From Escherichia coli (GTDB lineage Bacteria; Pseudomonadota; Gammaproteobacteria; Enterobacterales; Enterobacteriaceae): a stretch of 64,000 bases of DNA. Made by a program: the position numbers. The stretch lies in assembly GCF_013315695.1 (NCBI RefSeq), contig NZ_CP054353.1; one strand, written 5' to 3'. The number at the start of each line of letters is the position of its first letter. The stretch's first letter is position 1. Of this stretch, positions 6,001 to 9,000 are shown in pieces.

Positions 6001-9000
6001 GCGACGAAGCCGTATTTCGCATCATCCACTTCAGCATCCTGAGTGGTAGCGCCCGTCGGTACGCGGGAAGAACGCACGACTGCAGTGCCGTTTTTCGCGG
6101 CGGTCGCCAGAGTGTCAAATACGGTTTTATACAGGTTGCCGTTACCCACACCAGCGCTAACAATGCCATCATAGCCCGCATCTACCAGTGCTTTAGCCGG
6201 AAGATCGGATGCGTTAGCGTAGTTATAAACGATGCCGACTTTCGGCAGCTCATTCAGCTTAGAGACATCGAATGGCGTATCGCTGGTGTGCTTACGTGCC
6301 GGGGTACGTTGGTAGTCAATCTTACCGTTGTGAATGTATCCCAGAGGACCGTAGTTAACAGACTTGAAGGTCGCTACGTCGGTGGTGTTGGTTTTGGTGA
6401 CATCGCGACCGTCCAGTACGGTGTCGTTCATCACCACCAGCACGCCACGATTAGCGGAGGCTTTATCAGCTGCGGTCACTACCGCGTTATACAGGTTGAA
6501 TGGACCGTCTGCGCTCATGGACGTGGACGGGCGCATTGCGCCGACCATCACCACCGGTTTGTCGCATTTCACCGTCAGGTCGAGGAAGTAAGCGGTTTCT
6601 TCCATCGTGTCGGTACCGTGAGTAATGACGAAGCCGTCGGTTTTATCGCAGTCGGTGTTAATTTTTTTCGCCAGTGTCAGCCAGACATTATCGTTCATGT
6701 CCTGGGAGCCGATATTCACTACCTGCTCGCCTTTTACGTTCGCAATGTCCTTCAGTTGCGGCACCGCATTAACCAGATTTTCTACGCCAACTTTACCCGC
6801 TGTGTAGTTAGATTTGGTTGCGGAGTCACCACCACCGGCAATGGTCCCGCCGGTTGCTAAAATGGTGATATTGGGTAATGCCAATGCTGCACCACTAAAA
6901 CCCATAACCAGTGCGGCAAGTGCCGTCTTTTTGAAAAACTCCATTTCATTCCTCCAGTTACGTGAACGCTACGCATTATCCCTTAGCTTTGTATGGGAAA
7001 TTTGACGTTAAACAATTTACAACGTGAATATATTTTGGAGATCTACAAAGTTAGAGGCAGGTAACAAAACGAAGAATTAAACGGCATAAAAAAGTATTAT
7101 GCCGTCTTAAAATAGAGGATTATTTTAAATTCCCGACCAGGGCTTTGCGGCTATCTTCCAGAGTCACAACGCGGCTACAAACATCTTTGCCAAACTGCTG
7201 GAAATCTTTTTCCTGCTTTTTCCATTCGGTTTGGATTGAGGATTGCAGACCGCCCAGGCTTCCCAGCACATTCTGTAATGGGTTACCGCCGCTTTTCAGC
7301 ACCGCTTTCGCGCCCATTTCATTAATGCTGTCCTGTAAAATTCCGCCCATTGCCTGATTCACTAATTGCTGGCCTTCGGCGCGAACCTGATCAATGGCTT
7401 TATAGTGAAACGTCAGGCCATCGCTGCGCGTTTCGATAATGCGGTTCATCTGCTCTTTCAGCTGCGCATCAAGTTTGGTCAGACGGCTGCGCATTTTGCT
7501 GCTTTCGCCCATCTCCTGAACGATAATTTTATCCAGCGCAATACGGGCTTTCTCGACGCGGCTTTTCGCGCCTTCATCAATCCACGGCAGCGTGTTACGT
7601 AGTTCAGCCTGATAATCCTTCGCCTGCTCGCGCTGGGCGGCATTCAGGGAATATTGCTTACCGTTATACATCACGTTGCCGTCTGGCGTGATCACCAGAT
7701 TGCCGTTTTCGCCCTTCACCTGCACGGTTTGCGGGCTGACAATCACATCGTCACGCGGCGTGACGCTGCACTGGTAGTCGGCGTGAGCGGTCATTGCCGT
7801 CACTGAAAGTGCTGCCGCCAGCAGCATTTTGCGCATCATAGTCTTCCCTCAAGAACAAATCAGGCCAGCATTTGCTGGCCCCAGATTGATAACAAACTGG
7901 CTTAAAAGTCAAAAGGGGCACGGTTTTCCCCCTCGCCCTTTTAGGGAGAGGGTCGGGGTGAGGGTAAATAATCGCGCCAGTGCTGGTCTGTTCCCCTCAC
8001 CCTAACCCTCTCCCCGGAGGGGCGAGGGGACTATCCGAGCGCTTTTTTTAACTTTGTCATCGCCCGTATGTTTTCTTAGTCCCACCAAACGTCGAAAAGT
8101 TCGCTGGTGCGTACCTCGCCCAGTTTGCGCTCTTCCAGCCACTTACGCACAATCGCCTGATGTTCTTCGGTGCATTTGCCGATTTCCTGCATGCAGATCA
8201 GACCTTCCCAGGCCAGATAACCGCTGCCGTCAAAGGCCAGTTTGTTCGGTTCGATAACCTCGTTAATAAAGTCATCAACGGTTTTATCAATCTGTTCTTC
8301 CGATGTACCTTCCGGGAATCGCCATGCCACCGAAAATCCTAATTCCTGGAATTCGTCGATGTGCATTTTTTTACGCAGACGACGGCTACGGTTCTTTGCC
8401 ATTATTTCACCCTCTCGAACATTAAGTCCCATACTCCGTGACCAAGACGATGACCACGTTGTTCAAATTTCGTCACCGGACGTGATGCCGGACGCGGTAC
8501 GTAATCATTGCTCTCTGACAGGTTTTTATAACCGTCAATAGAAGACATCACTTCAAGCATATGTTCCGCATAAGGTTCCCAGTCGGTCGCCATATGGAAT
8601 ACGCCCCCCAGTTGCAGTTTGCTTTTTACCAGTTCGGCAAACGGCACCTGAACGATACGGCGTTTATTATGGCGCGCTTTGTGCCACGGGTCAGGGAAAA
8701 AGAGCTGCACCATGCGCAATGAATTGTCAGGAATCATTTTATGCAGCACTTCAACCGCATCGTGACACATCACGCGCAGGTTGCTTAAGCCCTCTTCATG
8801 CGCAGAAGCCAGGCACGCACCAACGCCCGGTGAATGCACTTCAATGCCGAGGAAGTCCTGCTCGGGGCGATCTTTAGCCATTGCCACCAGCGACGCCCCC
8901 ATGCCGAAACCAATCTCAAGCGTCACCGGCGCTTCACGGCCAAAAAGCGCAGGGAAATCCAGCATATCTTCGCTGAACTCAACGCCCATCACCGGCCAGT

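What the first reader, a model, noticed from the sequence alone, without database searches (positions are those of the whole stretch)
7860..8050. Large GC-rich imperfect palindrome between yggN and yggL
Two about 40-bp mutually inverted units rich in ccctc/gaggg motifs could form an extended cruciform or RNA stem. It is probably a member of a known extragenic repeat family, but its orientation relative to flanking genes does not make it a canonical terminator for either.
Basis: seen in the sequence. Interest (0 to 1): 0.2.

Follow-up and report, generated by a model that had tools for sequence, protein, structure and literature searches.

The report
BoxC repeat pair behind yggL
The GC-rich palindrome is an inverted pair of BoxC (also called PIT or TMECO) repeats, a known non-coding repeat family of E. 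coli; it is ordinary, except that only about 1% of E. coli genomes carry it at this spot, where the rest carry a REP pair.

Summary
Window 7911-8047 is a 57-nt-arm imperfect palindrome, far more stable than shuffled sequence. It is made of two BoxC/PIT/TMECO units, one on + (7930-7965) and one on - (7993-8028). Both fit the published consensus CCCTCNCCC-N3-6-GGGNGAGGG-N3-GGGNGAGGG. They sit in the published type A plus type B inverted arrangement.

The family is multi-copy (median 17 BLAST places per genome, 5418 of 5426 E. coli genomes) and already described. The published work found no promoter or terminator activity and linked the family to local genomic instability.

The locus history is less routine:
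- Other enterobacterial genera have only about 50 nt between yggL and yggN, holding one terminator hairpin.
- Escherichia carries an insert bounded by GATGACAAA...TTTGTTATCAATCT.
- In the K-12 and sampled genomes the interior is a REP pair (BIME). In 54 of 5426 genomes, including this window, it is the BoxC dimer. In 10 genomes the dimer has collapsed through a 76-bp deletion.
- The nearest paralogue is the ygfF-gcvP dimer (87.7% identity). It shares the same ends, so a roughly 180-bp dimer looks like the inserted unit.

I found no evidence of a locus-specific function. The real yggL terminator is the small conserved hairpin at 7862-7881. This is a known kind of element and of low interest.

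The parts
7883..8062 (.). Whole inserted composite (BoxC dimer element), AGATTGATAACAAA...TTTGTCATCG. It is absent from the roughly 50-nt yggL-yggN spacer of non-Escherichia genera.
   Evidence: Compared with 'empty' sites in 70+ enterobacterial species. The same span (7883-8061) is the limit of similarity to the ygfF-gcvP paralogue (87.7%).
7930..7965 (+). Left BoxC/TMECO unit, CCCTCGCCC-TTTTA-GGGAGAGGG-TCG-GGGTGAGGG-T. It is B-like (second loop TCG) with one stem mismatch.
   Evidence: Regex match to the published consensus. It has 1-2 differences from the ygfF-gcvP B unit.
7993..8028 (-). Right BoxC/TMECO unit, type A mm, CCCTCGCCC-CTCCG-GGGAGAGGG-TTA-GGGTGAGGG-G.
   Evidence: Regex match. 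It is identical over 36 nt to K-12 TMECO no. 23 in Table 1 of PMC4666352.
7966..7992 (.). Spacer between the two G-rich ends (TAAATAATCGCGCCAGTGCTGGTCTGTT). It is conserved among dimer copies and forms the hairpin loop.
   Evidence: Alignment of dimer copies; folds.
7911..7967 (.). Left arm of the long imperfect palindrome.
   Evidence: I1
7991..8047 (.). Right arm of the long imperfect palindrome.
   Evidence: I1
7897..8052 (.). Allele-specific cassette (about 156 bp). K-12 and the sampled other E. coli genomes have a roughly 104-bp REP pair (BIME) in its place.
   Evidence: Alignments A1 and A2. The allele-specific 40-mer 7893-7932 is found in exactly 64 of 5426 genomes, once each.
7883..7896 (.). 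Outer end of the insert on the yggN side (AGATTGATAACAAA). It is kept in the BIME allele and shared with the ygfF-gcvP dimer.
8053..8062 (.). Outer end of the insert on the yggL side (TTTGTCATCG; reverse complement CGATGACAAA). It is kept in the BIME allele and shared by four dimer loci.
7948..8023 (.). The 76-bp segment deleted in the 'collapsed' allele of 10 genomes. The end points lie in the direct repeat GGGnGAGGG, and a single hairpin CCCCTCGCCCTTTTAGGGAGAGGGG is left.
   Evidence: L089, L090
7862..7881 (-). Context, not part of the repeat: a small GC-rich hairpin plus T-run (GGGCCAGCAAATGCTGGCCT GATTTGTTCTT). It is conserved across Enterobacteriaceae and is the likely intrinsic terminator after yggL.
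   Evidence: Terminator scan. It is present in all 80 related loci, including those with a 50-nt spacer. Fold -17 kcal/mol, z -3.7.

Best explanation
The feature is one copy of the BoxC dimer. Two BoxC (= PIT = TMECO) repeat units, one type A and one B-like, lie in inverted orientation with their G-rich ends facing across a 27-nt spacer, inside a roughly 180-bp composite with its own conserved ends.

Shown: it matches the family consensus. It is multi-copy and intergenic. It is an insertion relative to other genera. It sits between the yggL stop codon and the conserved terminator hairpin. It is a minority allele, present in 54 intact and 10 collapsed copies among 5426 genomes, while K-12 and the sampled other genomes carry a REP pair within the same outer ends.

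Inferred: it has no locus-specific job. It is a selfish or relic interspersed repeat, tolerated in the 3' untranslated stretch of the trmB-yggL transcript. As RNA or single-stranded DNA the two units pair into a long three-segment hairpin, and each unit can alternatively form its own hairpin. The published triplex was shown only for isolated DNA oligonucleotides.

Its main biological consequence is structural instability at the DNA level. Slippage between the short direct repeats GGGnGAGGG or CCCTCnCCC across the hairpin collapses the dimer to a single hairpin. The interior of the insert has also been exchanged with a REP pair at some point. The type A against type B difference keeps the palindrome imperfect, which plausibly makes it tolerable to the cell.
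For: Family identity:
- Both units fit CCCTCNCCC-N3-6-GGGNGAGGG-N3-GGGNGAGGG (consensus from PMC4666352).
- The right unit is identical to K-12 TMECO no. 23.
- The A plus B inverted pairing matches all five K-12 pairs, and the facing G-rich ends match four of them.

Copy number: BLAST finds matches in 5418 of 5426 genomes, median 17 places per genome.

Insertion: 70+ non-Escherichia species have a 48-56-nt spacer holding only the terminator hairpin.

Alleles:
- 641-bp BoxC form in 54 genomes.
- 565-bp collapsed form in 10 genomes.
- About 588-bp BIME form in K-12 and in every other evenly sampled row.
- The allele-specific 40-mer is present in exactly 64 genomes, once each.

Instability:
- The same kind of 75-bp collapse occurs at the alx-sstT dimer.
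- Holder et al. describe this 'palindrome effect' and raised variability around TMECOs.

No selection on the long helix: 0 of 33 predicted pairs show compensatory change among 8 dimer copies, and allelic variants break pairs.

No known RNA family: Rfam gives only sub-threshold miRNA-like chance hits.

Published function tests: no promoter or terminator activity for PIT elements.
Against: Absence of function is inferred, not shown, and no expression data were available. In the window allele the dimer stem is followed by U-rich tracts on both strands, so a contribution to 3'-end formation or to mRNA stability cannot be excluded. The REP allele that replaces it could play a comparable role. BoxC units lie right after yggN in many other genera, which may mean preferred or useful placement at gene 3' ends rather than pure neutrality. 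The transposition mechanism of BoxC is unknown.
Confidence: 0.8

Rival explanations
1. The dimer acts at the RNA level as a terminator, possibly bidirectional, or as a 3'-end stabiliser for the trmB-yggL transcript, in the way REP hairpins protect upstream mRNA from 3' exonucleases.
For: It lies directly downstream of the yggL stop. The RNA hairpin is -81.7 kcal/mol. In this allele U-rich tracts follow the extended stem on both strands. The alternative allele is a REP pair, a class known (from general knowledge) to stabilise upstream mRNA. BoxC pairs directly follow the yggN stop in many genera.
Against: The consensus scan does not call it a terminator; it calls only the conserved small hairpin 7862-7881 just downstream. 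That hairpin alone serves in species without any insert. The T-run on the side relevant to - strand transcription is missing from the paralogous dimers. PIT elements showed no terminator activity (Hoyne and Maher 2002, via PMC4666352). There is no covariation supporting the helix.
Confidence: 0.12
2. The units function through non-B DNA: an intrastrand purine-motif triplex or a G-quadruplex on the G-rich strand. These would act as programmed pause or recombination sites that generate adaptive local variation.
For: Isolated TMECO oligonucleotides form very stable triplexes in vitro, and TMECO loci are more variable than controls (PMC4666352). Each unit has four G3 tracts. This locus shows three or more alleles plus collapse, and ygfF-gcvP and alx-sstT are also polymorphic.
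Against: Double-stranded TMECO showed duplex signals only, and in vivo DMS footprinting gave no evidence of triplex. The deletions seen here are explained by ordinary hairpin-mediated slippage between direct repeats. 'Adaptive' instability is speculative.
Confidence: 0.06
3. It is a chance palindrome or a locus-specific structure unrelated to any repeat family.
For: None beyond its presence.
Against: Consensus match, identity to K-12 copies, and thousands of copies across genomes.
Confidence: 0.01

Closest known systems
BoxC repeats of E. coli (Bachellier, Clement and Hofnung 1999 survey), also called PIT elements (Hoyne et al. 2000; Hoyne and Maher 2002) and TMECO (Holder et al. 2015, PMC4666352)
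   Same: Same consensus, same unit flanks, intergenic location and multi-copy distribution. Same inverted type A plus type B pairing, and the same tendency of pairs to collapse into a single hairpin.
   Different: Nothing in kind. This copy sits at a locus (yggL-yggN) that carries no TMECO in K-12 MG1655 (Table 1) and is found in only about 1% of complete E. coli genomes.
REP / BIME elements and REPINs (REP doublets, Bertels and Rainey 2011, PMC3116915)
   Same: An inverted doublet of short GC-rich palindromic units placed in an intergenic 3' region. It occupies the very same insert as a REP pair in other E. coli, and a 1.1-kb BIME array in one Escherichia lineage (L011).
   Different: The sequence is unrelated to REP; no REP core occurs in the window. 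No RAYT-type transposase is known for BoxC. The units have a third G-rich block that REPs lack.
MITEs and ERIC/IRU elements of enterobacteria
   Same: A non-coding insert of 100-200 bp with inverted ends, able to fold into a long hairpin when transcribed, with presence or absence varying between species.
   Different: The terminal inverted repeat is only 9 bp with one mismatch. The 3-bp duplication (CCC) is inferred across genera and could be coincidental. No cognate transposase is known.
Rho-independent terminators
   Same: A GC-rich stem with flanking T or A runs, downstream of a stop codon.
   Different: The stem is about five times longer, with internal loops and a 27-nt apical loop. It is not called by the scan, and a canonical conserved terminator follows it.

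Membership tests
BoxC / PIT / TMECO | Sequence pattern CCCTCNCCC-N3-6-GGGNGAGGG-N3-GGGNGAGGG | tested here: met
   Two matches, + 7930-7964 and - 7994-8028. The right unit equals K-12 TMECO no. 23.
BoxC / PIT / TMECO | Interspersed and multi-copy in E. coli genomes | tested here: met
   Matches in 5418 of 5426 genomes, median 17 places per genome. Holder et al. count 23 strict copies in MG1655.
BoxC / PIT / TMECO | Strictly intergenic location | tested here: met
   Lies between the yggN start (7839) and the yggL stop (8076).
BoxC / PIT / TMECO | Pairs combine a type A unit (loop TTA) with a type B unit (loop CCG, TCG or CTG) in inverted orientation | tested here: met
   Left loop TCG, right loop TTA, G-rich ends facing, as in four of the five K-12 pairs.
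BoxC / PIT / TMECO | Conserved unit flanks beyond the triplex core (5' GCGCTCGGnnnGTC, 3' GAACAGnCCnGCAC for type A) | tested here: met
   The window A unit has GCGCTCGGATAGTC and GAACAGACCAGCAC, like the K-12 single and paired units.
BoxC / PIT / TMECO | Forms an intrastrand purine-motif DNA triplex in vitro | not testable with these tools
   Shown by CD and NMR for oligonucleotides of the same sequence type (PMC4666352). Not shown in vivo.
REP / BIME | REP (palindromic unit) core such as GCCGGATGCGGCG or GCCTGATGCG | tested here: not met
   No REP core anywhere in the window. The K-12 allele of the same locus does have two.
Rho-independent terminator | Short GC-rich stem, loop of 3-8 nt, then a U-tract on the transcribed strand | tested here: not met
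   The scan calls only 7881-7862 on the - strand, not the dimer. The - strand T-run next to the dimer is absent from paralogues.
MITE | Terminal inverted repeats plus target-site duplication | tested here: inconclusive
   The ends GATGACAAA and GATAACAAA match at 8 of 9 positions. CCC flanks both sides when compared with the C. koseri empty site, but that comparison is cross-genus and in a C-run.
MITE / REPIN | A cognate transposase (IS or RAYT) that recognises the ends | not tested
   None is known for BoxC. There is no association with plasmids or phages.
Any Rfam RNA family | Score at or above the family gathering threshold | tested here: not met
   Best hits are eukaryotic miRNA hairpin models at 20-29 bits against thresholds of 58-105.

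The most novel reading that the evidence does not exclude
The roughly 180-bp BoxC dimer, not the single unit, may be the mobile entity. It would be REPIN-like, with defined ends (GATGACAAA...TTTGTTATCAATCT), and it inserts next to terminator hairpins. At yggL-yggN its interior was later swapped for a REP pair while the outer 10-14 bp at each end were kept. That would mean two unrelated repeat families can exchange cassettes within one insertion scar. The BoxC allele in 1.2% of E. coli would then be an old surviving or introgressed form, not a recent copy: it has no second copy in 5426 genomes and is 12% diverged from its nearest paralogue.
Probability: 0.3. Interest if true: 0.45.

Novelty: already known. 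Interest (0 to 1): 0.2.

Why it matters
For annotation, it explains an unannotated GC-rich palindrome; RefSeq lists no feature there. It also warns against calling it a terminator or an sRNA.

For repeat biology, the locus is a compact natural series: empty site, BoxC dimer, collapsed dimer, REP pair and a 1.1-kb BIME array, all between the same two genes. That series could be used to measure what these repeats do to 3'-end formation, mRNA stability and local mutation. It could also be used to ask how BoxC elements move, which remains unknown.

Tried and rejected
- Rfam at a permissive E-value gave only eukaryotic miRNA-like hairpin hits far below threshold, which I treat as chance.
- The promoter scan found no sigma-70-like site in 7600-8300.
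- I looked for covariation in the inter-unit helix across 8 dimer copies and found none.
- I looked for a donor copy of this allele elsewhere in E. coli and found none; the 40-mer occurs once per carrier genome.
- I looked for internal homology between the BIME and BoxC interiors. Nothing was convincing beyond the shared ends, apart from a 7-nt GGAAAAC match judged to be chance.
- I tried to test whether other BIMEs carry the same GATGACAAA/TTTGTTATC ends. The window has no REPs and too few K-12 BIMEs were in hand, so this is unresolved.
- I looked for a link to plasmids or phages. The hits are mislabelled chromosomes, a few large plasmids and rhizobial megaplasmids with similar G-rich motifs, which says nothing about mobility.
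- I looked for a clean within-E. coli empty site to define a target duplication at ygfF-gcvP and alx-sstT. Both loci instead show larger replacements.
- I looked for a local divergence peak around the locus relative to K-12, as a sign of recent import. The whole 16.7 kb collinear region is 2-4% diverged, so the test is uninformative.
- Literature searches for later functional work on BoxC/TMECO, or for reported BIME/BoxC swaps, found nothing beyond Holder 2015 and the 2008 stem-loop survey.

Full report
**What is there**

The window is E. coli and is 100% identical over the locus to strain VR50 and 27 other genomes. On the - strand lie ansB (5898-6944), yggN (7120-7839), yggL (8076-8402) and trmB (8402-9121). 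mutY is on the + strand.

The 236-nt yggL-yggN spacer contains a long imperfect palindrome with arms 7911-7967 and 7991-8047: 57 nt, 75% complementary, 23 nt apart. Either strand of the spacer folds about 40 kcal/mol better than dinucleotide shuffles (z about -8, 0 of 200 shuffles as good). The 146-nt core folds at -81.7 kcal/mol as RNA and about -40 as DNA.

The stated range also includes a separate small hairpin at 7862-7881. This is the only terminator-like site the scan calls, on the - strand.

**Identity**

Each arm contains one unit matching the published BoxC/PIT/TMECO consensus CCCTCNCCC-N3-6-GGGNGAGGG-N3-GGGNGAGGG (consensus and K-12 list from Holder et al. 2015, PMC4666352).

- The - strand unit (7993-8028) is identical to K-12 TMECO no. 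23, which is type A with one stem mismatch.
- The + strand unit (7930-7965) is B-like (second loop TCG). It differs at 1-2 positions from the B unit between ygfF and gcvP.
- The unit flanks (GCGCTCGGnnnGTC on the 5' side, GAACAGnCCnGCAC on the 3' side) match those of K-12 single and paired units.
- Pairing a type A unit with a type B unit in inverted orientation is the arrangement reported for all five K-12 pairs. Four of those pairs also have the G-rich ends facing, as here.

The family is multi-copy. BLAST with the 146-bp core finds matches in 5418 of 5426 complete E. coli genomes, with a median of 17 places per genome. Rfam has no matching family. BoxC is listed among the known E. coli stem-loop repeat families, citing Bachellier et al. 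1999 (PMC2267715).

**What is published about function**

According to Holder et al.:

- Isolated G-rich strands form a very stable intrastrand triplex in vitro.
- Duplex DNA and in vivo DMS footprinting give no sign of that triplex.
- Hoyne and Maher (2002) found no promoter or terminator activity and no effect on polymerases in vivo.
- TMECO loci are more variable between strains than control intergenic regions.
- Inverted pairs tend to lose parts of both units so that one hairpin remains.

**Locus history (new here)**

K-12 MG1655 has no TMECO at this locus (Table 1). Its 183-nt spacer holds two inverted REP units, a BIME.

A scan of one genome per species with YggN returned 80 loci. Outside Escherichia the spacer is 48-56 nt, with one Kluyvera exception. 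It consists of a few bases, the hairpin GGGGCCAGCAnnTGCTGGCCC with a T-run, and the yggN ribosome-binding site. That small hairpin, at window 7862-7881, is therefore the conserved yggL terminator, and everything between it and the yggL stop is an Escherichia-specific insertion.

In E. coli, E. albertii, E. whittamii and two unnamed Escherichia species the insert is bounded by CGATGACAAA on the yggL side and TTTGTTATCAATCT on the yggN side, and it contains the REP pair. One lineage (L011) has expanded it to a 1.1-kb BIME array.

Among 5426 E. coli genomes:

| Allele | Length of 641-bp test region | Genomes |
|---|---|---|
| Intact BoxC dimer (98.3-100% identical) | 641 bp | 54 |
| Collapsed derivative | 565 bp | 10 |
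| BIME form | about 588 bp | all other evenly sampled rows |

The collapsed derivative lacks 76 bp (window 7948-8023). The deletion end points lie in the direct repeat GGGnGAGGG, and a single hairpin CCCCTCGCCCTTTTAGGGAGAGGGG remains.

A 40-mer specific to the BoxC allele (7893-7932) occurs in exactly 64 genomes, once each. No E. coli genome therefore holds a second, donor copy.

**The unit of repetition**

The nearest paralogue is the dimer between ygfF and gcvP, at 87.7% identity over window 7883-8061. The similarity starts and stops at the same bases that bound the insertion relative to the empty site, and it includes the 14-bp and 9-bp ends that the BIME allele retains. The GATGACAA end is also present at the alx-sstT and fepB-entC dimers but not next to single units.

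The simplest reading is that a roughly 180-bp dimer was the inserted unit and that the REP pair replaced its interior later. The opposite order, or introgression of the BoxC allele, cannot be excluded. E. albertii and the other sampled Escherichia species carry the BIME form.

A 3-bp CCC duplication is visible against the Citrobacter empty site. It lies in a C-run and is not convincing as a target-site duplication.

**Structure and selection**

Across eight dimer copies the consensus fold has 33 pairs in three helices, and none shows a compensatory change. Allelic variants (EFF60, K_EC180) break pairs. The helix is therefore a by-product of two conserved repeats lying in inverted orientation, not a selected RNA structure.

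The type A against type B loop difference (TTA against TCG or CCG) is a conserved internal mismatch. As an inference from general knowledge of palindrome instability in E. coli, this imperfection and the 27-nt centre probably make the palindrome tolerable.

**Instability elsewhere**

- At alx-sstT many genomes carry a 75-bp collapse between CCCTCTCCC direct repeats, and others carry a wholesale replacement of the region.
- At ygfF-gcvP about 44% of genomes lack ygfF together with the dimer. The breakpoint lies 3-4 nt outside the dimer end, next to the gcvP terminator.

These observations agree with the instability reported by Holder et al.

**Mechanism judged most likely**

The element is a passive, non-coding repeat insert transcribed within the 3' part of the trmB-yggL message, upstream of the true terminator. 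It can fold into a long hairpin, and the sense A unit could alternatively form an RNA G-quadruplex. According to work cited in PMC4666352, the purine triplex does not form in RNA.

Its demonstrable effect is on DNA stability, through slippage deletions and cassette replacement. A role in 3'-end formation or mRNA stabilisation is the main rival. In this allele U-rich tracts flank the stem on both strands. Against it:

- The relevant T-run is not conserved in paralogues.
- A canonical terminator follows the element.
- Published tests were negative.

**Verdict**

The feature belongs to a repeat family described in the 1990s and characterised in 2000-2015. It is ordinary in kind and of low interest. 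The allele series at this locus, and the evidence that the dimer has defined ends, are modest additions that could help work out how BoxC elements spread.

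Noticed in passing
window 7862-7881 (- strand): A small hairpin plus T-run sits about 20 nt upstream of the yggN start codon. 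It is conserved in all 80 enterobacterial loci examined and is the only content of the yggL-yggN spacer outside Escherichia. yggN must therefore be expressed by read-through or from a promoter inside yggL. In K-12 the T-run is TTTTTT, whereas here and in most Escherichia it is TTTGTT.
   Followed up: partly
L021-L086, about 3230-3700 (just downstream of the yggN stop at 3217); compare window 7075-7105: In Enterobacter, Leclercia, Lelliottia, Phytobacter, Kosakonia, Huaxiibacter, Pseudenterobacter and others, BoxC units lie immediately after the yggN stop codon, usually as a head-to-head pair and sometimes as arrays of 3-5. E. coli, Salmonella, Citrobacter and Klebsiella have a plain terminator hairpin there. 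There are 46 strict TMECO matches in 440 kb of these loci.
   Followed up: partly
L011 1369-2500 (Escherichia sp. MOD1-EC7003, yggL-yggN spacer): The REP pair at this locus has been amplified to a 1132-nt array of alternating REP units (BIME-2-like) within the same outer ends.
   Followed up: no
L004 760-1122 (K-12) against L093 and L094 1380-1500: About 44% of E. coli genomes lack ygfF and the adjacent BoxC dimer and have a REP plus about 80 nt instead. The breakpoint is 3-4 nt from the dimer's GATGACAAA end, beside the gcvP terminator.
   Followed up: partly
L102 220-640 (strain Q65, alx-sstT spacer): In some genomes the alx-sstT BoxC dimer region is replaced by an unrelated GC-rich sequence of about 430 bp, whose nature was not determined.
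   Followed up: no
window 1571-4773: A 3.2-kb segment between hemW and yggM is absent from K-12. It encodes a TRAP transporter with DctP, DctQ and DctM domains (ORFs 1883-2869, 2905-3417, 3417-4718).
   Followed up: partly
window 16632-16707 and beyond: tRNA-Phe (pheV) marks the end of collinearity with K-12. The remaining 47 kb or so of the window has no match in the corresponding 50 kb of K-12, as expected for a pheV-associated genomic island.
   Followed up: no
L062 2324-2500 (Kluyvera sichuanensis): This is the only non-Escherichia locus with a long (177-nt) yggL-yggN spacer. It holds a different palindromic insert (…CCCCAGGAGCGTACATAAGTACGTGACTGGGG…) placed at the same position, upstream of the terminator hairpin.
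   Followed up: no
plasmid collection hits H225, H230 and others: Sequences similar to the G-rich BoxC core recur on Sinorhizobium, Azospirillum and Rhizobium megaplasmids (105 of 145 matching records). This suggests analogous G-rich repeat families outside the enterobacteria.
   Followed up: no
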